This document shows positions 3,001 to 38,685 of a DNA stretch of 40,820 bases, piece by piece. This DNA comes from Catajapyx aquilonaris (taxonomy: Eukaryota): positions 1 to 40,820 of the forward strand of contig KZ538916.1 of the NCBI GenBank assembly GCA_000934665.2, read 5' to 3'. Positions within the stretch are counted from its first letter, which is position 1, and each line of letters opens with the position of its first letter. Both the position numbers and the translations under genes were made by a program. Under the pieces are notes generated by a model. That model was not told the DNA's origin and made no database searches. It saw nothing but the letters and a program-made list of their open reading frames with translations.

Positions 3001-6000
3001 TTGGTGTGTGTTTGAATGGGAAAGAAATGAAAACAGTTCGTGGAATAACAGCAATCCGTCCTTTCATATTTTCACTAGGCTACTCCACCTCGTCCCGTTT
3101 TTTTTCCCCCGGACGAGCCCACAGCCCTGCCACAACTCCAGGTCTATTTCATGGGAACAATGATGCGTGCTCAAAATCAATTTGGTAAGAAGTAGAAAAA
3201 ACCTGCCGCCACCCCCCACCCCCACCCCACCCAGCCGAATCAGGAGCTAGTTCTACAACCTCAATATTATTCCAACAGTTAACCACAAAGCGATGCTTTT
3301 GTTCAGGTGGAATAATAGTAAGCAAGCCAGTAGCAAAGATAGCTCATTTACAATCACTCTCAAAGGGCAGGGATAGACCGCAGTGTATATCCATACAGTA
3401 TGCGAGAGGGGGGGGGGATTCAAAGGGGGGATCAAAATGTACTACTTGCCCGCACAATTTTTTTCTCTCTTTACATATTTAAAATCCCGAGTTAACAAAA
3501 TTTTCCCTCCAGAAAATCCTTTCTTTTTTCCATCTCTGCAAAAATGTAAACAAAAATTGGGGGGGCTACATGAAGCTGTGAATATGACTGCATATAACCT
3601 CCAGATTTCCCCTCCCCTTTTCTGCAAAGTAACTTCATTAGCCGATACTTCCACGTACAACACCTCTTAATTTACTTAAATCTCGGTGCTGGAGGAAGAT
3701 TTCATATTCCTTTAAAACGGGCGACTCTGTTCTTTAAGTGTTAATTGGCAATTCCGTCGTAAGGCCGATGCGTTCTGCACAGCAAGTAGAACCGCTTTTG
3801 TGGATCATGCCGTAATAAGGGCCTTGAGATTTTCTCCAGAACAAATTGGTAATTGATTAAACGACGACGGAACTTTGCCACGTCGAGCAATGAATAGGGC
3901 GCCAGAAACTAAATAGCTACTTTCTCTACCAGACTTTCCGTGACTCGAATGTCCCAACCCCCCAAAAATGGTAGTAGGCCTTACCTGGATAAGTTGCGTC
4001 CAAAAAATCTCTCACAGGCCAAAAATCCCGAGCACACTCTCTTCCATCACGCCCTACTCCCAAGTCCAGCATCAGGAATAAGAGAACCCCCACCATATAG
4101 GTCCCTAGGTTTCCCCCCCATCCTGCATCCACCCCTCTACTCTTTTTTTTTTTTTGATTTGCTGCTTTAAAATGTCCACCCCTCCGACTGCCACCCTACT
4201 ATACCCCGGAGGACCCATGCACACGCAATCCTGCTCAACCTGAATAAACAGGCTTCTCGCTCAAGAACAATAGGTCCCCAACCCTCCAGCCCCCCCTCTC
4301 TATAGTATACTATCCAAAATATCAGTCTCGGCGTGCATGTACACAACATACATGGCATAAGTACAATATTTACGCACCCGTTCGGTGTAAGCAGCCCAAC
4401 AATAGGTTCCTCGATTAATTTTTTAGGGTCATGATTGTAAGCGTGCATACAAGATGGTAGCCAATACGCTTTTATTGCTGTCACTGTGCACTAAAATCAC
4501 ACCTATGGAATACTTCACAAGCTATGCAACAATCGAGCTTTTATTCCAACCAATGTGTGGTAATGCACTGAACAAACTGGAGCTTACTCTAGCCACCCCT
4601 TTTTTTAGATCTTAATTGTTGGATACGGCGCCAATGTCTATGACCGTGCAAACTGTATTTTAGAAATCACATAAAAAAATTCGCTCCACACTCTAAAAAA
4701 AACGCTGCAATTACACATGTATGACTGCAAGACAAAGTCGCTAAAATAGGCCTGCAATTTAGCGAGTTGGGGTCCAAAAATGGTCTATTACCGAGCCCCA
4801 GAATTTCTCTTAAGCGGCTGATAATAGGACCAATTATACGCGGATGGAAAAATGGTTGAACTCTGTATACCCTATGCTTGCAAAAATGTAAATACGATTT
4901 TCCCCCCCAACCTTTTACCCAAACGTTTTCGCACCGGAACAAAACTATTCCTTTGACATCACATGTTCGAGGCAGAAATCCGCAACAATTTCAAATTAAC
5001 AATCCAGGTACTCGCAGGAAAAGAACTGGAACTTTACTTTAAAAAAAGACATAAACGAGCAAGGAGAAAGGGGGNNNNNNNNNNGGGGGGGGGGGTGGTT
5101 AGAACAAAGGAGAAGAGACACTTGAGGCAGGCATTAAGACACTGAGTCGACTTCAAAGAACACAAGCCGAGGCTCGAGCGGTTTAATTCCTTCCCTTCCC
5201 AACAGACGAGCCTGTTTATCGTCTTAATATCATTATCAATGTTTCCTGGCTGCCATCACCTCGGGCATACTTCAATCAAGGCAAAGCTCCAGAGAAACCT
5301 TGCCAGATGGTCCGTAACATTACAGGTCTCACTTTGCTAGCTGTTGCTGCTACACTTTTTCTTAGCCCCCTCTGGCTATGACTAGATATTGGGACAATAT
5401 AGAGATGTGCTGGAGGATATTATTAACGGGCAAAGTGTAAACAAATCTAATCAACACAAGGAAGTGAACTATACCTTGGAGCTAGTATGCAGGATATCAG
5501 TCAGCAAATTAGTTGAAAATGTTTTGAAATAAGCAAATGAATTTTTTCTCAAAACATAAATTTCCACCTTCACGTATCTTCGTCGGCAACGACGCATTCA
5601 CCGGTCGTCATCCCTCGTAAAATCAGCCCCTTTATGCTGGCTTCTTGAAAGTTTCAAAGCGGCCAGACACACCTCCTCCTTCCCCCTGTTTTTGGGGAAG
5701 GGGGGGGGGGGGAGGATCGAGCGGTCTCGGCCCATTCCCTTCTACCTCCTGAACACAGGCCAAGTAAAAGTGCGACAGTATACATCTTTCCACCCCACGA
5801 AAATGTCAGATCCTCTAACCTCCCCATCCCCTCCAACTGGCTCCTCCAGGAAAATGTGGGCAACAAACAAACATGACGTCCTTATATAAGAGTAGGGGTG
5901 GAAAAGCCGGTTGGCAGTTTTGGTGTCAAGCTGCCTTCAGGCCGGACACAAATCTATTATAATTTCATGGTTTCAAGTAAAAGGGAAACTACCTCCCCCC

Positions 6001-6579
6001 TCTCTCGTGCTTTAACCCTCGCTTCCTGGACTAAGACTCTGACATTGCTGTGTCCCTGCGACTTTCGGACCTTGCTCTTTCCACCGTACCATCCTGCTTT
6101 TTCTAGGGGGGGATGGCGTTGTCGCAGACCAAAAGGAAAAGCAGGAGCTTTTTGTACCGAGGTGAGTAGAGGGGGGGGGGGNGGGGGGGGGAGCATCCCT
6201 TCCTTTTCCAACCCCCGGAACATGGGGGTGAAACCGGATATGGAAAAGGACCCGCGGATTTTCGCATCCAGCAACCCCTCCTTGCACAGCCTTCCATTTC
6301 ATATGTATATAAAAAAGTGAAGGAACAATGCGTGGAAGGGGTGTTTGGGGATGAAGTGTGTCACGTTTAGAGCTAACGAGATGTTCGGTCCACGTGGCTC
6401 GCAGAAATTCGGCACAAACATGCTCAAAAATGGGGCCTACCTTTAGATGTCTTGAAGCCAGGAAATCCATGTGCAACATACAACTGTAATTAAAGGCACA
6501 CCCCTGATCCAATACTATTGCATACCAAATTATTAAAAATCCATTGCTTCATCTGATTGATATATTGGGTTATGAAATA

Positions 6580-6795
6580 CAGGGTGTTTCAAATTTGTGC
6601 GTCGTTTTTTATAACTGATATTGCTCGATAGCAGTTATTTTTTGTAGCTTGTTGTGCCCCTAACCTGGTGCCCCATTCTATAGCAACTGCTATATTCGAC
6701 CCCCTGGGAGTAAATGGAGCACAGCAAGCTACAAAAATAACTGCTATCGAGCAATATCAATTATCAAAAACGACGCACAAATTTGGAACACCCTG
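6580..6795. mobile_element. Non-autonomous Tc1/mariner-type MITE, 216 bp, with ~80-bp terminal inverted repeats
   Basis: The left arm 6580-6659 (CAGGGTGTTTCAAATTTGTGCGTCG...GTAGCTTGTTGTGC) is the reverse complement of the right arm 6716-6795 (GCACAGCAAGCTAC...CGACGCACAAATTTGGAACACCCTG), with about 5 substitutions and 1 indel. It is flanked by TA (6578-6579) and CA (6796-6797, probably a mutated TA). CAGGGTG termini with a TA target are typical of Tc1/mariner elements. No coding capacity. Confidence 0.9.
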
Positions 6796-8072
6796 CATTT
6801 TTTAAACAAAATTATTTAAAACCCCAAAGTGATTCACAGCCACCTTTCCTCCCTTACCCCAAAGCAACTCTGCAAAACAGACTAATACGCACTGTACTCG
6901 CACTTGATGGAATTGTGGTTTTAATTAAACCTGATTTGTCACGATGTGACGCACCTCCATAATACTACTACATAATCATCCAACTTTTTCCCCCCTCCCT
7001 CCCTCCCTCCCTCTCTCCCTCTGCCTTCCCACCTCCCAGCCACCCACCTCAAAACACCACTGGACGTTCCAGCAGCTTTGTTGGCATGCACACTGATCAT
7101 CGTTTACCCCCCTCATACCAACCCCCATGCACCAAAAGCACACACACGTGCATTCAGATATTTTTATAGATCATTATTTCCGGCATTAATTATCCCGGGA
7201 GTCGTATGCATATTTAGTACGTGGAGATTGAATGTGAGTTGGTCGGCCCCTCCCGCATTTAAAAAAAACCGGGGCGTTAAATAAAAAAAAACCGGACCCA
7301 GGACCGAGAGACACAAAGAAAGCGTGTACGATTGGCCATCAAAAAGCTCCAAACTGGGAACGGTGGCGTCATTGCCAAGCCTGCGGAGTCGTCTGCACGT
7401 TTTAACACACGCGACGGGAATCGTTATTCCGCTCTGACATAATGATACCTGTTTGTAATACTAATAGGGAAATGAGGGGATAAACAGCGTGTAGTGAGCC
7501 CATGTCGTCGGGAGGAGGGGTCAGCTACGGGAAATTAATTTCCGGACAGAGGAAGACGACTGTACATTTTCTCCCAGACGTGTCTCCTCTTTTTGTCATC
7601 GTCGGACTCCGGGTATATACATACACACACCCCAATTCCGACGCTTCCTTTTAATTAGCCCATTCGTTTCCTCCCCCGCGCCGTTTGGCCTATTTCTTCC
7701 CAGGTTAATTTATGCAACCCCCGTGTGCCGGGACAACAAAATTCGATGATAAACGCGCCATAATCACGTCGTACCGTTGTGTATACGTCTCTATAAAACG
7801 TCGATACAAAAGGGGTGGCGGGACCCAAAAGGATGCTCAACAATGCCAGTTTTCACTGCCCCCCTGATGCATGGTGCACCCAGGTGCCAGTTGATATTTA
7901 GTACATCAAGCTGGAACAAAAAATGGCATCGCCGCAAAGGTGGAAGCTGGCAACACCGCAAGTGCGCGCAGGACAATGCGCATTGCCCGCACTTAATATT
8001 TTACGACTTTAAAATTATTTATTTATTTATTTAATTGTAGAACCTGTGTAAAGCCTCCCGATGACCACCGTC

Positions 8073-8111
<39 letters not shown>
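8073..8111. repeat. (TTTA)n microsatellite, the insertion site of the Helitron-like element
   Basis: About 10 tandem TTTA units. The phase continues at 8436 (TTTATTTG) if 8112-8435 is removed. Confidence 0.95.
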
Positions 8112-8170
8112 CTAGCAGGATGCCCGTCCGGGAATGGAAAAAAATATATATTAGCGGAAAAATGGTAGAA

Positions 8171-8250
8171 GTTGCTATGGTAACCCGTTGCAATGGCAAC
8201 CCCATTGCCAATGGACACCCGTCGCCAGGCAATCCCGTTGCTATGGCAGA
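8171..8250. promoter_or_regulatory. Tandem array of five RFX X-box-like palindromes, ~16-17 bp period
   Basis: GTTGCTATGGTAAC (8171-8184), GTTGCAATGGCAAC (8187-8200), ATTGCCAATGGACAC (8204-8218), GTCGCCAGGCAAT (8221-8233) and GTTGCTATGGCAGA (8237-8250), joined by CC/CCC linkers. The RFX consensus is GTTGCCATGGCAAC. The motif match is seen directly; function is not shown. Confidence 0.6.
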
Positions 8251-8330
8251 ATAGGGTGGTGGATGGGCAGGGTCGGTAGAGGGGGAGGGAAATATGACAT
8301 ACCGACAAACCTTTCCTTATATATGACATA

Positions 8331-8422
8331 CAGGGTGTTCCAAGTATTTGGGTCACTTCTTGATAACTAATATCGCCCGATAGCAGTTATCAAGAATTGA
8401 CCCAAATACTTGGAACACCCTG
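8331..8422. mobile_element. 92-bp fold-back Tc1/mariner-type MITE with intact TA target-site duplication
   Basis: TA-CAGGGTGTTCCAAGTATTTGGGTCACTTCTTGATAACT...AGTTATCAAGAATTGACCCAAATACTTGGAACACCCTG-TA. The 38-bp arms differ by one mismatch and almost the whole element is palindromic. TA lies at 8329-8330 and 8423-8424. Confidence 0.93.
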
Positions 8423-10894
8423 TATCTAACATAGATTTATTTGTAAAACCTGTAATGTAACTCATCCTTATGATGACCTTCTGAATTACCTTAAGCTTAT
8501 TTATTTATTTGTCAAACTTGTAATGTAACGCCTTCCTATGACTACTTTCTCAATATTTATGACTTAAATAAATAAATACAGTGCATAAATAAGTGTATTT
8601 TGAGAAGGTGGCCATCGGGAGGAGTTGCATCAGGTTTTCCAAACGAGTGTATACCATATACCCCCACCCAATAGCCCTTAGTAATCGCCGCCTAATCTCG
8701 TTCCTATAGCCAAAACGTCACAGGAAGCGCACGTGCCATTACTATTCGTGGGGGCTCATAGAGAGAGAAAAAACATGAGAGAGCCTGTAGAGACGACGGG
8801 GAATGGCCGCGGGAGGGAAAGGTTGTTTCATTCCAATCCAACAGCTTATTTAAACATCAGGCGTGTATGGTATTTGTGTTTCAGCCTTTATTGCAAGTTA
8901 GTTGGGGGTATTTCCCCATCGTTTCCCCTGGCCACATATTGCGGTCCAGCTTAGTTTCCTGATGCAATAATCTCCGCACAAGAAGTTCACTTGGGTGTTT
9001 GAACGATTCTCACTCCCGGAATTTTTCACTCTCCCGGGCTATATCCTTCTAAATACCGCTTCCTACTGATTTTCCTATTGAAATAAGGGTTTGTTACAAT
9101 ATGCCCTCGAGTTTCAACTGCGCCGGGATATCTTTTTCCGCTACTGTTGCAATTTACTAGCCTTCCCCAGCTAGAAACGGATAGGGGAAAAAACATCTCC
9201 CCCCTCCTCCAAAAAAATCCGATTTTCGCAAATCTCGTTACCTTCAACCCCCAGCTCTTGCCGTTATCTATCACTGTATTAAACGGATTTTTCGCCGCCG
9301 ACGCATAAAAGTTCGGAGAGGGGGGCGTCCCCATCTTTTGATTTCTGTTGCTATTAGCCCCGCAGTTTAATTCCTGCTCATTAAGGAAAACCCAAGTATT
9401 TTTCCACAGATATTTTCTTCAGATTTGAAGAAGTCGTCCACGGGTAAGAAAATTTAACAAGAAATTCGCCGAATTGGGCCTGTTTAACTCAAAAATTATT
9501 GTAAATATCTGTGCTTGTCAGTCATGTCCGTGTTTATACCAACCACCACCATCATCTGGCGTTGGTTCTTCATAGGGCTGGGCCAGGCAAAACAGGCCGC
9601 AACTCTAAGTTTGGCTCCGGTGTTTACCTCCGGAGAAGCCCCCTGCGCCCTGTGTACAGTGCAGGTGAAGTGGGGATGAAAACAGCAGTGCACAGGACCG
9701 CCATCCGCCGAAGAATGCCGCGCTTGTTGGCGCCCGATCCGCCATGGGAACCCGGGCATCCCCTGTTATTTTGTAAGTAAACAAGTGCTTCCTGGAAAGC
9801 TCCCCGCCTGTCTGTCGGCACATGCATAAACACCCCCCCTCTACCCCACCCTACCAGCCAGCACCCCCCCTCCCACCCCCTTCAAAACCCTGCAGACTTA
9901 CCAGATAAACTAAATATTAAATGCAAATTTCACTCCCCGACCGCCTTTTCCTTCCCGCGCCTCTTTTAAATGCGCGCGCTTGGCTTTTTCGGACATTAAA
10001 ATCCAAAAGAATAAACACGGGGTGGCGCAGCTGAGCTAATGGAGTTTGAGGCATGGAAAAGGGGAAGGGAAGGGGGAGAGGGATGGGAGGGGTTTTCCAA
10101 GCCAGAAGGCCGAAAACGTCGGCGTGTAAAGCCGGACCCAGCCTAAATAAACCGACTTGAGAGAAACAGCACATGATGCCTCAAACATGTGTCGCCTACT
10201 TTTCATTTCCAACCTGCATAATAATAATAAAAACCTCTGTGGTTGGCAGCTTCCTGGCCGCCCAAATAGACATTTCCCAGTACACAAGCAAAACTATACT
10301 GCCCCCCCCCCCCTCTCTTTCTCTCTACCAGAAAAAGGAAATGGACTTCCTTGGGTCGGAGGGAAAAAGCATCGCCAATCATTTCCTGCTCATTACGTCC
10401 CATTGTCGTCTTGGTAACCAATTACGGTCGCCATCTCGCTGCATCTTATATTTGGACCGTTCTACTTACAAGATGATATGCCACTGCGAATCCAATTGGG
10501 AAAATTATCACTATTATTGGGTGTAAAATACAAAAGTGCTGTACGTAAGGGAATTGTTCCTAAATCCGATGCGTAAGTCGAATTTTACGTACCTCGGAGC
10601 CACACTGTAGCTCATTCCGAAACAACAACACTTTTTGCCTGAACCCGGCTCATGACTTCCGATGAATAACACACAGATTGACAAATACACACAATAACGT
10701 TCATTGGCACAAGAAGAGTGTTGCGGTTTCGAAATCCCTTCTCGTAGACTAATAAATGTTTTTCGCGATCTGCATAAGTTGAGATGTAAGTTCATGTACG
10801 TCTGGCAATATCTTTCTTGTAAGATAATACAGCACCCACAGCATAACTTCTCAAAAAAGTGGGTGGCGACCTCTGCCCCCTCCAGACACCCTAC

Positions 10895-10941
10895 CTGATT
10901 GGTGGAACAGAGGGCAGGGGGCCCCCTGCTCTACCAATCAG
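10895..10941. repeat. 47-bp imperfect inverted repeat with opposed CCAAT motifs
   Basis: CTGATTGGTGGAACAGAGGGC-AGGGG-GCCCCCTGCTCTACCAATCAG forms a ~21-bp stem with about 3 mismatches. Confidence 0.6.
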
Positions 10942-13171
10942 ATCGCTTAGGGAATGGTGGGTACAGTGCGGTCCATAAGAAATCTTCTTTTGAAACCCTA
11001 CCGTCAGATGTCGCAATATTTGGGACATGCCTATTTTTCCGAGCAATTAGGGTGTTAGGCTGTGAGTAGTATACATAATCTGGAAGCAACAGCATGGCAA
11101 TCCACCACGTCCCGCCAATCACCGTCCGAGAAGTGAAACCGTCACTCGTGACGTCAAACCTCGCAAACCGGGGTCCATGCCCAGTGCCCTTTATGGTGGT
11201 CCTGCCCCGGTCCTGTATATAACCCCTGCTTGCAAACCGCTTCCAGCACTCCTTTTGTTTTCTCCCACTGTTGTTACAGCATTCCGGGGCCACTATATAA
11301 TCGGAGGGGCCCAAGCAGCCGAGAGAAAACGTCGGGGGTGGTGGAGGAGGAGGAGGGGGGGGGGGTATAGGGGCCAAATCCTCTCTCAGATCCCCGGAAC
11401 TATACCGTAATAATGCAGCTCGTAAGTACACCCCTGAATAGGGTTTATTGGTTTTATTGTTGGACCAACAACAACGGCTCCAGGGGGGCGGGTAAGGCCC
11501 CCAGAAACGCTCTCCCCAAGTATATTTACGTGTGTTTGTATGCAGCAGACTGCCCCACTCATATTTCACCTCCGGAACACAAAGTCCCCGTATTTTGAAT
11601 GGTCATTACAAACTTCCCTGCACTATGTGTACATATTCCATCCTCCCCCCTCCCTCCCTCCCCCCAATTTCCTATCTGACCCACTCTATTTGTGGCCGAG
11701 CCCAGAGAGAGAGAGAGAGCGCGCAGACTATAAGCAGTTGCTCTGATCAAGGTTCATTTGGAATAAAGGAAATAACTGTAGGCAACGATTCAGTTGTGCA
11801 AACGAGCCGGCTGGGAGGACTGGAACCCTAACTGAAAATCAAGCCGGACTCTCGGCGAAAGGTCCAGCCGAGACTGCCCACCAGACAAAGCAATATGTGT
11901 ACAGTTATAGGGCACCCAGGCCGGGGTCCCGGGCTCTGTATAATTTGATATTATTAACATGCTCGGTCTCAAGAGAGTAAATGAACTTTGCTCCGGGCAA
12001 GATTTGAACCATGGGAAGTTGAAACTGTAAAACGGAATTATTAAATGAAGGGAAACATGAAACAAAGCGCCTTCGTATGGGTTGGACTGGGAGGAAGGGG
12101 TTTTTGGTCAGTTGAGAGGGGGAGGGGGGAGGGGGCTTATTAAGAACTACCCCGATCATTCGCTTCCAGCTATGGCCGCATCCTTTCTGATTTTATTCGC
12201 CAGGGTTTTTTTGTGCGTAAAAATGGGGAAAGGATTACCTCCCCCCCCCCTCTACCACCCACCAAGCCTAGAGCTCCTATTTGGGCAGAGGAAGGGCTTA
12301 ATATCCAGTTCATAAACGTGGACCCTGCACACACAGAGTACACTCTAACATTTCCCCCAAGATGCGCAATACAGCACCCGGTGCAAGAAAATCTGCTCTG
12401 GGCCCCCTAAAGTTAAGGTTTCCTATGGATTCCATTACTCCTCGCCAAATCCCTGAAAAAAAAANNNNNNNNNNNNNNNNNNNNNNNNNNNNNNNNNNNN
12501 NNNNNNNNNNNNNNNNNNNNNNNNNNNNNNNNNNNNNNNNNNNCCCCCCCCCCCTCCCTACCTCCCACCCTCCCTTCTGCCAGCCTCTCTCTTATGAACA
12601 CCCAAAGGCTCGGGCAGAGATATTGCAAGGAATTGAATTTTCATCATAGCCAACCGAACTGTTGCCATCTTTTCAAGGAAGGAAGGGAGGGGAAGGCGGG
12701 GGAGTGAAAAGACAAAAAGGGTGGGATGGAGAGAGAGAGAGAAAAAGGAGTGGTAGAGAGGGAGGGGGGATATACAGCTTCGGAGTGGACCGTGAAAACC
12801 ATTCCTATAACTTTCATGTTTTTCATAGCCGTGGGGCACACAGGAAAACACCATTTGTTTTATAGATGGTGAGGCGATATTTAAAGCTGGCTATAAAAGG
12901 TGTCACCCAGGCCACATCTATTTCAAAGTTTGGCAGGGCAGCCAGGCCTGCTTCCCGAAAACCAGAAGAATGTCCACTCTCTCAGAAAATAGGGGTGGTG
13001 GTGGTGGGAGGAAGGGAGCCCAAAACCCCGGGGGTCTATATATTGCTTGTGTGCAGTGTGCGTGTAGACCACGCATGGCCAAGCAACACCGCGCATCTAT
13101 CGGCTCTAATAAGCACATCTTCAGTTTTGATGGAGAAAACGCTATTTATTATTTTTTTGGACCATCATGTA

Positions 13172-13366
13172 CACTGTAATTCATGTACCGATTCCGGAGG
13201 TGGTACTTTGTGGTCAACAGATGCTGACTACGGTACTGTAGCCAATCGTTCATATATGTACTGACTTGAAAATGGTACATCACAATGTACCGATCCAGTC
13301 AGTACTCGTAGACGGTACTTGTTGATCACAAAATACCACCTCCAAGTCGGTACATGTTTCACAGTA
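13172..13366. mobile_element. Degenerate fold-back MITE, ~195 bp, GTAC-rich, CACTG-type terminus
   Basis: The left arm CACTGTAATTCATGTACCGATTCCGGAGGTGGTACTTTGTGGTCAACA (13172-13219) pairs with the right arm TGTTGATCACAAAATACCACCTCCAAGTCGGTACATGTTTCACAGT (13320-13365). A second internal hairpin lies at 13258-13305 (GTACTGACT...GGTACAT / ATGTACC...AGTCAGTAC). The target-site duplication is not resolvable and the superfamily is uncertain. Confidence 0.75.
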
Positions 13367-15169
13367 GTTAATGCCCGCAATATATTTTCTTACTGACAAA
13401 TTGCAGCTATTTCGGCCAATAGCTTAGCTATTAGTCATTAGCCAATCGACTGGAAAGAGCCCCATTTTCCTAATACAGTTCGCCAAACAGCGTTGGTATC
13501 AATCCTCCCCTGCTTCTCCCCTGCCCTACTGTACTGTGTATAGGGATGGGGAGAGGAGGAGGAGGGGAGGTGCTCCTGATTGACTCTAATCCCTCCTCCC
13601 TGAGGGTCAACTTTGCTCCCGGAGGCCCACAATTTATCCTTAAAATGCCTTTGGAAGCCCTACTGCTGCTGAATGCCAAGAAGTTCCCGCTGGCTTTTTG
13701 GCAAAAGGCTCCTTGCCTTGACGGATATCCAACAAATCTCGGCGTCGAACTTTCCCCTGTCCTAATATTTCATACCCCGGCTATATCAAAATGGGGGTGG
13801 GCGGCAAAACAACGAAACTTGCAACCCCTTCACTTTCCTCCAATCTCCTTCAGCACTAATAAGTCTAATCAATAGTAAAGTGTGGGCTTCTCACCATAGA
13901 CTTGGAGGCCACCAAGTTATTCATGGCTGACCCCTTGCGGTATAGGCAAACAGGCGGCGCGCGCGGTATGGGAGAAGATGTTGTATAGTAGATGGGCGTT
14001 GATGATGATGGCTGCCCAACCCTCCCAAGCTGCCAACTTCCAACTTAGTTGCTCCCCTAGATGCATACTTCAGGGGATAAGAAGCTTAATAGGATTCATC
14101 AATAGCGTTGTAAAACTTGGAGACGTCCAATTAATCATGGCTGGCTGGCCAAGCGCAAGGAGTTGGCCAACATGATGTATAGATGGAGCAGATCCTATAG
14201 AATTTTAACGTGCCAGTGAGGTCACTGGGTTATTCATGCTGATCCATTGCAAAAACTATAGTCCAGATGTACATTTTTGTATAACTTATGTAAAAATATC
14301 CCGGCCCGTACAACTAACATGTAAATAATGAGAAGTATCGCAATTAGAATTTCAATGCGGCCGTACTTGCTCCTTGCTCGAACTGCAATAAGGCAAAAGC
14401 TCATTTACAAAACATTCCCGAGGGAATAAAATCTGCTCCCCTCCCACTCTCTCCCAAGTTTTCCCGGCTACCGCCTTATTCGAAATAACACATTCCTTTC
14501 CGCTCTCTCTCCTGGTTAAATGTTTGGAAGCCTAAACCTGTGCAGAGTGTACCTGCAGTGTATGGAATGCCATAATAAAGCATAATCCAGGAATTTGGCC
14601 GGCGCAAACTATTTATGAGCCAACGACTTAAAAGTTCGGCGCATTTACTCCCTATAACTATACGCAACATGTAAAGTTTCCGCCAGCACTAGCAGCATAC
14701 ATAGTTCCTTTACCAAAATGCCCTGTAAATAGGCAATGAGGGACTATAGTTAAAGCACAGGAGGAATTGTTACACAAACACAGACCAACAACATCCAGTG
14801 TACACTCACATGTGTACACAACTACGCGAGCTGTAACCCCAACCAAATATTGCAGAGTTTTGTCACTGTTCTGTGAAACTTATCTCAAAATTCGTGCGCT
14901 TCGCCTTCTTAATGTAGTTCATGGTATTTTTTGCAGTAACAAATATTATGGCAACTGCATTGAAATTGATTTTGCATAAATTCAGCTGGCATGTGTTTGC
15001 AGTAACTTGATCTTTGGCGGATCCCACACTACTCTATAAATGTATGTTCATTGAAACGGATGATCCTGCAAGTTGCCCGCAACTACAAACCTTACATATA
15101 CTCCAAAGTTACTCGTAGCACCTGACGTAGAAATGTTTCACAATCAATGTATATTTCAATGGAAGGGCT

Positions 15170-20591: not shown

Positions 20592-20674
20592 TAGGCGTGA
20601 ATCCGCTTAAGGATAGGCGTGAAGCCGATTAAGGACAGGCATGTATCCGCCAGGAAGGAAGGTTAGGTTAGGTT
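20592..20674. repeat. 22-bp minisatellite (~2.7 copies) followed by a short (GGTTA)n tract
   Basis: TAGGCGTGAATCCGCTTAAGGA (20592-20613), TAGGCGTGAAGCCGATTAAGGA (20614-20635), CAGGCATGTATCCGC (20636-20650), then GGTTAGGTTAGGTT (20661-20674). Confidence 0.8.
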
Positions 20675-37100: not shown

Positions 37101-38599
37101 TGGTAAGTAATTTGCAGTGGGATGTCAGTCAGGTAGCTTAATGTGGGGCTGAATGTCAGATCGAGCGTTAAATGATCGAGGGTTTAAATTATGCAGGCAG
37201 GTAGTAGCGTATTTCCAACCCCTTCACCCGATAGTCCAATAAGAACAACACCCGATGTGATAACCGCGTCGAAAAATTCGTCGGCATATTTCCATAAAAT
37301 TATTTCAAAAAAAAATGAGCAAGAAACTCAGTAATCGGTTAAATATTCAGCACACTTTTGTACCTTTATGTATGTTCACAATTAATTTGTCGTTAATTTT
37401 AAAAATAATTTTCACACCACAAATCCGGACCACTACATGACGCATGGACAATACTTGTTCCTGAAATGTCACTTCTGAACTCCGAGAAGCATGGCCAAAA
37501 AAGACAACCACGTTGCCCACATCCTGAACAATTTTTGTGGGCAGGAAGGTGCAAAACTAAGGATGGAAAAAAAAAATTGGAAGAAAAAGACTGGCACAAA
37601 AACTTGGTGTCAACTGTTGCGTGCCATCCACAATCCCCCAGCGTGTGAACTTCCATGGTTGGTGAACCGTACGAGAAACATCCTTTGCAAAACTCTNNNN
37701 NNNNNNNNNNNNNNNNNNNNNNNCCCCCCCCCCCCCCCCGCCTCTCCTACGAAAAAAATAAATAAAAATGGAGCAATTTGTTATTCCAAATATGCGCAGA
37801 TTTTTTAGAAGGCGTAGACATGCAATGTTGCAAACCCCCGCCAGTTACCAATTGGGCTGATTTCGCACTCGAATGACCCAACACCGATACCGAATTGTGA
37901 GCGTGTTAATACCCCCATTGTTACGGCCAGACATGCGGAAAATGCAACTTTTATTTTTACGCCCGGAGGACACCATTCGCCCCCCCTGAAAAAAAAATTC
38001 GGGCCGATTTTTCACATCATTTGCCGTCGGTGAGCTTTTTCTTAATTTTTGGGGACCACTGTAGTCCCCCCCCCCCTCAGAACCCCAAGGCCTGCGGATC
38101 CGTGACAGGGATGCAAAATATGCTCACAAGGTCATGAATATGAATGCAGGGAAACGTTGAAGTTTCCGAATATACCTGGGCATATGCAACAGAAGAACGC
38201 GGCTCATGTTTTGTTAATGAGATTTGCCCCCCACCCCCTCCTCCTCCTCCTCCCCCCCACCTCCCTAATAAAGGCCAAAATCATTTTGCACATTGCAATG
38301 AGTTGGCGTTCTCTAGTATTTCAGCAAGGGAGGCAGAATATCGTCTCGCGGAAAAGACTGAATTTATATTGTACACTGACAGTCGGTTTTGCAGGTTTTG
38401 GGAAAGAGAAAATTCAACATCAGGGGGAGGAGGAATGTAAAAGAGATTGGGTTGCTAGGGAGAGTTTTAAGTCCAACTTGCGACGTAACGTGATGGACCA
38501 CTCCGTATATACGGACCGTGCCATATTGGACATGTATGGACGAAAAGTCTGAATTAAACAAACGTTTAGATTGTTTTAAAAATTCAATTCAATTCAATC

Positions 38600-38685
38600 A
38601 ATATCGATATCATTCGATATGTTCAATAAATATCGATAACATTCGATATGCTCCATTAATATCGATAACATTCGATATATCGAAA
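38600..38685. repeat. 29-bp tandem repeat (3 copies), each containing TATCGATA
   Basis: The unit is about AATATCGATAACATTCGATATGYTCMATW, with TATCGATA at 38602-38609, 38631-38638 and 38660-38667. It is preceded by (AATTC)3 at 38581-38595. Confidence 0.85.

What the first reader, a model, noticed from the sequence alone, without database searches (positions are those of the whole stretch)
8112..8435. Helitron-like element carrying a five-fold RFX X-box array: a candidate mobile RFX-responsive cassette
Seen in the sequence: a minus-strand element with TC...hairpin-CTAG termini inserted at A|T, whose internal minisatellite (8171-8250) consists of five X-box-like palindromes. Two of them (GTTGCTATGGTAAC, GTTGCAATGGCAAC) are close to the RFX consensus. 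Established knowledge: RFX/DAF-19 factors drive ciliary gene programmes through X-boxes, and Helitrons have spread transcription-factor sites in other animals (heat-shock elements in Caenorhabditis, MSL recognition elements in Drosophila miranda). Inference: this family could disperse clustered RFX sites and bring nearby genes under ciliated-cell or germline RFX control, or exploit RFX itself. I cannot tell from this window whether the family is already catalogued.
Basis: partly seen in the sequence, partly recalled or inferred. Interest (0 to 1): 0.75.

Follow-up and report, generated by a model that had tools for sequence, protein, structure and literature searches.

The report
Helitron minisatellite made of RFX X-boxes
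An old, broken copy of a small rolling-circle transposon carries a row of repeats whose family form matches the binding site of RFX, the animal cilia and sperm regulator, but nothing shows that this copy or its relatives control host genes.

Summary
The element is real: a non-autonomous canonical Helitron on the minus strand (TC at 8435, CTAG at 8112, inserted at A|T without duplication), later hit by a 92-bp MITE. Its subfamily has at least 56 copies, and RepHel-coding elements share its 3' end. The 16-17-nt repeat unit is a true X-box at family level: 20 strict sites inside 55 copies, 0 in equal flanks. Such elements hold 12 of 19 sampled perfect X-box loci. The host RFX DNA-binding domain is 65/74 identical to human RFX1.

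This copy is decayed, however. One of five units fits the strict consensus, the 3' hairpin loop is deleted, and the 40.8-kb contig shows no recognisable gene. 41 of 55 copies have no strict site, most elements with these ends lack the array, and no ciliary neighbour was found (a weak test).

Best reading: a selfish RFX landing pad kept by the transposon lineage (0.45). A neutral minisatellite is close behind (0.3); ciliary rewiring is unlikely (0.08). X-box arrays with other linkers occur in 7 unrelated metagenome contexts, and this scan noted X-box arms on a foldback transposon in another genome. In passing: the host RFX gene has 12 fast-evolving duplicates.

The parts
8112..8435 (-). Non-autonomous canonical Helitron copy, old and decayed; 230 bp without the MITE and one TA
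8434..8435 (-). 5' TC terminus, preceded by A
   Evidence: flank continuity fixes the boundary
8331..8422 (.). 92-bp hairpin MITE with TA duplication (8329-8330 and 8423-8424), a younger separate family inserted near the Helitron 5' end; the Tc1/mariner label is from recall
   Evidence: z -14.8; 82 matches counting both strands, best other copies 93-96% identical
8296..8322 (-). Conserved 5' block of the subfamily (AT-rich stretch, then GTTTGTCGGTATGTC)
8251..8290 (-). C-rich short internal repeats (CCCTCTAC-like) shared by the copies
   Evidence: alignment
8171..8250 (-). Minisatellite of five 16-17-nt units derived from an X-box unit
8171..8184 (-). Unit 1, GTTACCATAGCAAC: the only strict X-box (RTNRCC-N2-RGYAAC)
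8187..8200 (.). Unit 2: 1 mismatch, keeps one perfect half site, fits none of four published classes
8204..8234 (-). Units 3 and 4: degenerate; 8221-8233 fits only the loosest class
8237..8250 (-). Unit 5: leading half-site unit TCTGCCATAGCAAC, typical first unit of the copies
8123..8132 (-). Remnant of the 3' hairpin, 11 nt before the end; 7 nt deleted relative to other copies
8112..8115 (-). 3' CTAG terminus, followed by T
8073..8111 (+). (TTAT)n run of the local repeat into which the element inserted; it continues at 8436-8486

Best explanation
Shown: a short non-coding Helitron with the same 3' hairpin-CTAG end as a young RepHel-coding family of this genome; its subfamily carries a variable number (0 to over 20) of 16-17-nt units whose majority sequence is a strict RFX X-box; the window copy is a decayed relic. 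Inferred: it is copied by that RepHel; intact units bind the host RFX1/2/3 protein; the array was kept and amplified because it helped the element, not the host, most likely as a landing pad that opens chromatin over the element's ends in cells where RFX is active (such as the male germ line), giving the transposase access. After insertion most copies decay neutrally, and any effect on host genes is incidental. Identity as a Helitron with an X-box-type array: about 0.95. The selfish-landing-pad mechanism: about 0.45.
For: Family and ends: (56 exact marker hits, control 0). Partner: two RepHel loci end in the same hairpin and CTAGT; they are about 97.5% identical to three more Rep loci, and one of those carries Helitron_like_N at 1e-57. 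Unit: 20 strict sites in 11,042 bp inside 55 copies against 0 in 11,042 bp of flank; spacing 16-17 in 36 of 55 intervals; with the left half as anchor the right-half positions match at 0.66-0.88 against 0.34-0.68 for the linkers. Genome: 386 strand hits for the 14-mer against 12 for the reversed control, 12 of 19 sampled loci in these elements. Recurrence: 16 metagenome loci in 7 unrelated contexts keep the 14-mer with different linkers and share nothing else with this subfamily. Host RFX domain 65/74 identical to human RFX1, recognition stretch RRLGTRGNSKYHY unchanged. Precedents: HSE clusters in Caenorhabditis Helitrons, proposed to have first served the element (PMC6927752, passages); rfx2, foxj1, foxn4 and myb ChIP signal at the 5' end of an autonomous Xenopus Helitron (PMC12001565, passages).
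Against: No binding, chromatin or expression data. The array is not needed in cis: 0 strict sites in 30 loci picked by the 3' end alone and 5 sites in 30 picked by the 5' end alone, and the region upstream of the partner's ORF has only one loose site and no array (one copy, 5' end not fixed). A non-coding element gains nothing from a promoter, so the benefit must be chromatin access, which is a guess. Linkers vary in length and hold a CpG, so their lower ungapped identity is partly an artefact. The metagenome scan had no reversed-pattern control and was aimed at this very motif; tandem duplication alone could give a few hits. There is no sign that X-box-rich copies spread more than X-box-poor ones (41 of 55 have no strict site).
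Confidence: 0.45

Rival explanations
1. Neutral passenger. An ancestor picked up one X-box-like palindrome (by chance or from a host promoter), slippage and rolling-circle copying expanded it into a minisatellite, and it has no function for element or host.
For: Unit number varies from 0 to over 20. X-box positions (0.66-0.88) are no better kept than the 3' block (0.57-1.00). Copies are old, median pairwise identity 0.71 over 20 sequences. Chimeric copies link the X-box-bearing subfamilies, so within this genome they need only one origin. Internal minisatellites are common in rolling-circle elements (PMC12001565, PMC4067079, passages).
Against: The unit hits the strictest published class exactly. 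The same 14-mer is arrayed with different linkers in 7 unrelated contexts elsewhere (uncontrolled). Longer arrays alternate unit variants yet keep the half site (22 half-units in L005).
Confidence: 0.3
2. The units are a cis signal for the transposase itself (iteron-like binding sites) or form single-strand hairpins that help rolling-circle copying; the likeness to the X-box is a coincidence of palindromes.
For: The window array folds better than shuffles (z -2.49). The half site CCATRGHAAC lies inside the ends in 5 of 30 and 7 of 30 terminus-picked loci, against 1 and 0 outside.
Against: An array of intact units does not fold (L012, z +0.66). Most elements with these ends and the RepHel-coding partner lack the array.
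Confidence: 0.1
3. Host co-option, the first reader's main inference: the family spread clustered RFX sites and brought nearby genes into ciliary or germline programmes, as Helitrons did for HSF-1 and MSL.
For: These elements hold 12 of 19 sampled perfect X-box loci. Some sit in or near genes, such as one about 110 bp from the first coding exon of a ribosomal L27e gene. Multiple X-boxes can tune expression (PMC3245922, abstract).
Against: No recognisable gene in this contig. No extra conservation of sites after insertion. Pfam hits within 1.5 kb of the 12 element-borne sites were dynamitin, L27e, PALP, NUDIX and WSC/fn3, at 4 loci, none ciliary; the 7 control loci also gave none, so power is low. 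An X-box alone does not predict RFX control (PMC2375033, passages).
Confidence: 0.08
4. Host defence or titration. RFX binding silences the elements, or the arrays soak up RFX, and the host's extra RFX copies with altered DNA-binding domains evolved in response.
For: One conserved RFX1/2/3 gene plus 12 duplicates, dS 0.13-0.17 from the parent for the 7 copies with 364 or more codons, 1 stop in 34 exon alignments, many changes in the DNA-binding domain. RFX1 can repress as well as activate (10.1101/493429, start of abstract only).
Against: Only co-occurrence. An element would lose, not amplify, sites that silence it. The duplicates carry no X-box within 1 mismatch and no ends of this family. 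DBD ratios rest on 80 codons, and some duplicates may be alleles.
Confidence: 0.07

Closest known systems
HSE-bearing Helitrons of Caenorhabditis (Garrigues et al. 2019, PMC6927752; passages read)
   Same: Helitrons with dense tandem clusters of one transcription-factor site, supplying most genomic sites (almost two-thirds of HSEs there; 12 of 19 sampled X-box loci here); only a minority of copies carry sites (about 19% there; 14 of 55 here).
   Different: Different factor (RFX, not HSF-1). There binding and control of neighbouring genes were shown; here neither is.
ISX Helitron of Drosophila miranda carrying the MSL recognition element (PMC6417741; passages read)
   Same: A non-autonomous Helitron that spreads a regulator's binding site.
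   Different: ISX gained one site by a 10-bp deletion and was domesticated on a young neo-X. Here the site is a minisatellite unit in old, decaying copies with no sign of domestication.
Minisatellite-bearing non-autonomous rolling-circle elements (Heli2Xen, DINE-1/HINE; PMC12001565, PMC4067079; passages read)
   Same: Short non-coding elements with variable internal repeats.
   Different: This one has canonical TC/CTAG ends and A|T insertion, unlike DINE-1/HINE (TT insertion, subterminal inverted repeats), and its unit is a 14-bp X-box with a 2-4-nt linker.
Heli1Xen1 of Xenopus laevis (PMC12001565; passages read)
   Same: A Helitron with rfx2 ChIP enrichment at its 5' end, the only Helitron-RFX link found in print.
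   Different: An autonomous locus with a presumed promoter; the word 'motif' does not occur in the paper's main text, and no X-box array is described in the passages read.

Membership tests
Canonical Helitron, non-autonomous | 5' TC | tested here: met
   8435-8434. A|TC(T/C)(T/A) within 40 nt upstream of the marker in 25 of 55 copies, against 47 of 585 background windows.
Canonical Helitron, non-autonomous | 3' CTRR | tested here: met
   CTAG at 8115-8112. Of 23 copies with a 3' block, 10 end CTAG|T at the expected offset; the others differ by substitution or shift.
Canonical Helitron, non-autonomous | 16-20-nt palindrome about 11 nt from the 3' end (PMC4067079) | tested here: met
   Family: 17-nt hairpin, 5-bp stem, 11 nt before the end (z -1.81 in L012, -0.71 in L046, so weak in energy). 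Window copy: 7 nt deleted, z +0.75.
Canonical Helitron, non-autonomous | Insertion between A and T without target duplication | tested here: met
   Empty-site alignment to the neighbouring uninterrupted repeat.
Canonical Helitron, non-autonomous | Interspersed copies with the same ends | tested here: met
   40 matches, 56 marker hits, 543 hits for the 3' 14-mer with control 1.
Canonical Helitron, non-autonomous | RepHel-coding partner sharing both ends | tested here: inconclusive
   3' end shared by 2 of 19 helicase-downstream stretches fetched; the partner's 5' end was not identified and showed no similarity to the subfamily.
DINE-1/HINE (Helentron-type) | Insertion into TT with T-rich ends | tested here: not met
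   Ends are TC and CTAG at A|T.
DINE-1/HINE (Helentron-type) | 12-15-bp subterminal inverted repeats | tested here: inconclusive
   None among the 25 longest of 64 inverted pairs shown, apart from the MITE; the rest were not displayed.
RFX X-box | Fits RTNRCC N1-3 RGYAAC (PMC2375033) | tested here: met
   Family majority unit and 20 sites in 14 of 55 copies; in the window only 1 of 5 units.
RFX X-box | Lies within 1-3 kb upstream of an RFX-dependent gene | tested here: not met
   No Pfam exon over cut-off in the contig; short or orphan exons would be missed.
RFX X-box | Conserved in place in a second species | not testable with these tools
   No related genome is held.
RFX X-box | Bound by RFX, with RFX-dependent activity | not testable with these tools
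   Needs EMSA, ChIP or reporter; the host domain is 65/74 identical to human RFX1.
Helitrons that rewire a regulon (HSE/MSL type) | Supply a large share of the factor's genomic sites | tested here: met
   12 of 19 loci, judged by eye; 8 of the 12 also flagged by end patterns; the sample is the first loci listed (lowest contig numbers), not random.
Helitrons that rewire a regulon (HSE/MSL type) | Neighbouring genes respond to the factor, or sites are kept by host selection | tested here: inconclusive
   No excess conservation; no ciliary neighbour at 12 element sites or 7 control sites.

The most novel reading that the evidence does not exclude
Unrelated non-autonomous transposons in several animals have converged on arrays of perfect X-boxes because recruiting RFX gives them open chromatin in the sperm lineage. 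In this genome they now hold more perfect X-boxes than host DNA does, and the host has answered with about a dozen fast-evolving RFX duplicates: a transposon-versus-RFX conflict like that known for zinc-finger genes, but on a deeply conserved ciliary regulator.
Probability: 0.1. Interest if true: 0.82.

Novelty: new variant of a known kind. Interest (0 to 1): 0.46.

Why it matters
Helitrons that spread binding sites are known for HSF-1 and MSL; an RFX version was not found in the searches listed. If RFX binds these arrays, it gives a direct test of whether non-coding transposons carry host factor sites for their own copying, because array-rich and array-free sisters share the same ends and partner. 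There is also a practical point: X-box scans used to predict ciliary genes in this and similar genomes will be contaminated, since over half of the sampled perfect sites lie in transposons. For this one locus there is no sign of function.

Tried and rejected
No RNA holder was listed for window 4000-13500, so no reads were laid; this is no evidence either way. Rfam: 0 matches in the window. Pfam on 155 window ORFs: one sub-cut-off hit (MRP-L20, 20.5 bits against 30.4), treated as chance. Viral contigs: 0 tandem X-box hits. RFX duplicates as Helitron cargo: rejected. No clan end or X-box lies in 13 loci; one 5' end of another Helitron family in L053 points away from the gene. Autonomous Helitrons with the longest ORFs (L105-L107, L111, L113, L115-L117) have other ends or none recognised. 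First impression that all elements with these ends carry X-boxes: refuted. Neighbour-gene test: uninformative, since the control gave no ciliary gene either. The flanking repeat matched only itself, which does not show rarity. No RFX weight matrix was available, so published consensus classes were used. Dfam and Repbase could not be searched. Paper searches with no report of X-box arrays in Helitrons; none on an arthropod RFX expansion: (listings only). PMC8896005 has no mention of DAF-19 or RFX in its main text; its supplements, not read, may list such motifs.

Full report
OBSERVATION. The window is a whole 40,820-bp contig of a 286-Mb genome; earlier notes of this scan call it an arthropod, which I did not test. 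On the minus strand the element starts with TC at 8435 and ends with CTAG at 8112, between A and T. It interrupts the (TTAT)n run of a local repeat. With the element cut out, the flanks align gap-free across the junction to the uninterrupted neighbour at 8497-8554, so the boundaries are right and nothing was duplicated. A 92-bp hairpin MITE with a TA duplication sits at 8331-8422; it belongs to a younger family whose best other copies are 93-96% identical. The array at 8171-8250 has period 16 and three sites within 2 mismatches of GTTRCCATRGYAAC, against at most one in 2000 shuffles. But only unit 1 fits the strict Drosophila classes of PMC2375033 (passages read). Unit 2 fits none of four classes, unit 4 only the loosest, and unit 5 is a half site. 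The 3' hairpin has lost 7 nt and does not fold. This copy is a relic.

FAMILY. A DNA search gave 40 matches. A 16-nt 5' marker that does not touch the array has 56 exact hits, control 0; they reduce to 55 distinct sequences, because two identical copies collapse. The window copy differs from the marker and is not among them. Of the 55, 23 have a 3' block within 900 bp. Twenty aligned sequences (19 short full copies plus the window) have a median pairwise identity of 0.71, so the subfamily is old. Intact copies show a 17-nt hairpin 11 nt before CTAG, the canonical geometry in PMC4067079 (passages), though weak in energy. The same ends are shared by a larger clan: 543 exact 3' 14-mers (control 1) and 149 exact 5' 18-mers (control 0). 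Two of 19 stretches fetched downstream of helicase matches end in this hairpin and CTAGT. They belong to a RepHel family about 97.5% identical across five contigs, the likely partner. Its 5' end was not identified; the region upstream of its ORF holds one loose X-box and no array.

THE UNIT. Inside the 55 copies there are 20 strict sites in 11,042 bp, against 0 in equal flank; loose sites 46 against 13. Fourteen copies have at least one strict site and 41 have none. The majority unit is GTTACCATRGCAAC with G-rich linkers, and spacing is 16-17 nt in 36 of 55 intervals. Anchored on the left half (n=41), the right-half positions match at 0.66-0.88 and the linkers at 0.34-0.68; the 3' block, partly selected by its own match, scores 0.57-1.00. 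So the sites are somewhat better kept than linkers, which vary in length and hold a CpG, but no better than the rest of the element: no sign of host selection after insertion. Arrays run to 22 half-units (L005). Against my first impression, the clan as a whole lacks them: 0 strict sites in 30 loci picked by the 3' end and 5 in 30 picked by the 5' end, although the half site is enriched inside both ends (5 of 30 against 1, 7 of 30 against 0).

GENOME SHARE AND NEIGHBOURS. The 14-mer has 386 strand hits (palindromic sites count twice) against 12 for the reversed control; in tandem, 13 against 0. The first 21 loci returned are 19 places; by eye 12 lie in clan elements or their pieces, 8 of them also flagged by end patterns, and one further flagged locus (L077) I judged not to belong. 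ORFs of 62 aa or more within 1.5 kb were scanned: 197 around the 12, 94 around the other 7. Hits were dynamitin, L27e, PALP, NUDIX and WSC/fn3 near the first group, HhH and SH2 near the second; none is a ciliary family, so the test has little power. In the window itself no ORF of 75 aa or more passed a Pfam cut-off (155 of 155 without N).

OTHER GENOMES. One metagenome scan for two perfect X-boxes in tandem gave 16 loci. With the arrays masked they form 7 unrelated groups, none similar to this subfamily, with linkers such as TTC/GAA, CA/TG, ACG/CGT, CGTG, TTTC, TCT and GCAC. One group of six ends in a hairpin followed by TTTATT (pattern-confirmed in three), which resembles a HINE-type 3' end; 5' ends were not seen. 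All look non-coding (32-50% GC); that they are animal DNA is my inference. No reversed control could be run, and tandem duplication of any 14-mer could give a few hits, so this is suggestive only.

THE HOST FACTOR. The genome has 16 RFX-domain matches. One gene (L051) is 65/74 identical to the human RFX1 domain of PDB 1DP7, with the RRLGTRGNSKYHY stretch unchanged, so binding to intact units is likely (inference). Twelve further loci are intron-containing duplicates of it. For the 7 with 364 or more codons, dS to the parent is 0.13-0.17 and dN/dS 0.39-0.47; there is 1 stop in 34 exon alignments; DBD ratios among duplicates scatter around 1 (0.15-2.55, 80 codons or fewer). Some pairs (dS under 0.02) may be alleles. 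They carry neither clan ends nor X-boxes, so no link to the element is shown.

MECHANISM. Shown: Helitron anatomy, a partner sharing the 3' end, an X-box-type unit, decay after insertion. Inferred: RFX binding; a benefit to the element. Since the array is not required in cis and a non-coding element needs no promoter, the simplest selfish role is chromatin access in RFX-active cells. RFX2 regulates spermiogenesis (PMC4498915, title and start of abstract) and RFX1 is ubiquitous with dual activity (10.1101/493429, start of abstract). In Nematostella, normally methylated regions that open on demethylation are enriched for promoter-factor motifs such as NFY and YY1 (PMC13345969, passages, in a section on intragenic transposons). 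I give this reading 0.45, a neutral minisatellite 0.3, a transposase or hairpin signal 0.1, host co-option 0.08, host defence or titration 0.07.

COMPARISON AND NOVELTY. It works like the HSE Helitrons of Caenorhabditis (PMC6927752, passages) and recalls ISX (PMC6417741, passages), but binding and gene control, which define those cases, are untested here. It is a member of the canonical non-autonomous Helitrons, not of DINE-1/HINE. The only Helitron-RFX link found in print is rfx2 ChIP signal at the 5' end of Xenopus Heli1Xen1 (PMC12001565, passages). Searches showed no report of X-box arrays in Helitrons; the library lacks most subscription papers, supplements were not read, and Dfam and Repbase could not be searched, so the family may be catalogued. 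Verdict: a new variant of a known kind. The locus is ordinary and the family-level pattern is worth a binding test. Interest 0.46.

Noticed in passing
L051-L062, L065 (G000:C1285, C8293, C8483, C20575, C6928, C7040, C3745, C933, C7182, C9086, C10694, C4550, C8627): One conserved RFX1/2/3 gene plus 12 intron-containing duplicates, where the left boundary is assembled starting near the exon before the DNA-binding exon; mostly open frames, fast-changing DNA-binding domain. No report found. Possibly more interesting than the finding itself.
   Followed up: partly
   Followed up: no
L253, L257, L258, L261, L263, L264: A metagenome repeat family with X-box arrays and a hairpin-plus-TTTATT end, like a HINE/Helentron element.
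   Followed up: partly
L105 and L107, about 135 nt inside the 5' end: A second, young autonomous Helitron family (copies about 95% identical, ORFs over 1100 aa) has one site fitting GYTRYY-N2-RRHRAC near its 5' end; it is altered in L106 and L111.
   Followed up: partly
L066:1130-1440: A row of CCACTAGATGGCAGC-like repeats directly beside an X-box Helitron; it resembles the CTCF motif (recalled, not tested).
   Followed up: no
L074:1450-1560: A perfect X-box between two inverted Helitron-like 5' pieces, about 110 bp from the first coding exon of a ribosomal L27e gene; a candidate for co-option.
   Followed up: no
window 8015-8072, 8436-8486, 8497-8554, 8565-8642: Four local copies (one inverted) of a 50-60-bp unit with a (TTAT)n run, like retroelement tails; no other match in the genome search. 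Nature unexplained.
   Followed up: partly
window 6575-6800: A longer relative of the TA-flanked MITE, about 81% identical in its arms.
   Followed up: no
L109:271-414 (protein residues 91-138): The partner RepHel has a weak Ulp1/C48 protease-like hit at its N-terminus, below cut-off.
   Followed up: no
L014:1640-2140: A non-autonomous derivative of the second Helitron family is nested inside a copy of the X-box subfamily.
   Followed up: no
window 20592-20650 and 38593-38678: Two other short tandem arrays, periods 22 and 29.
   Followed up: no
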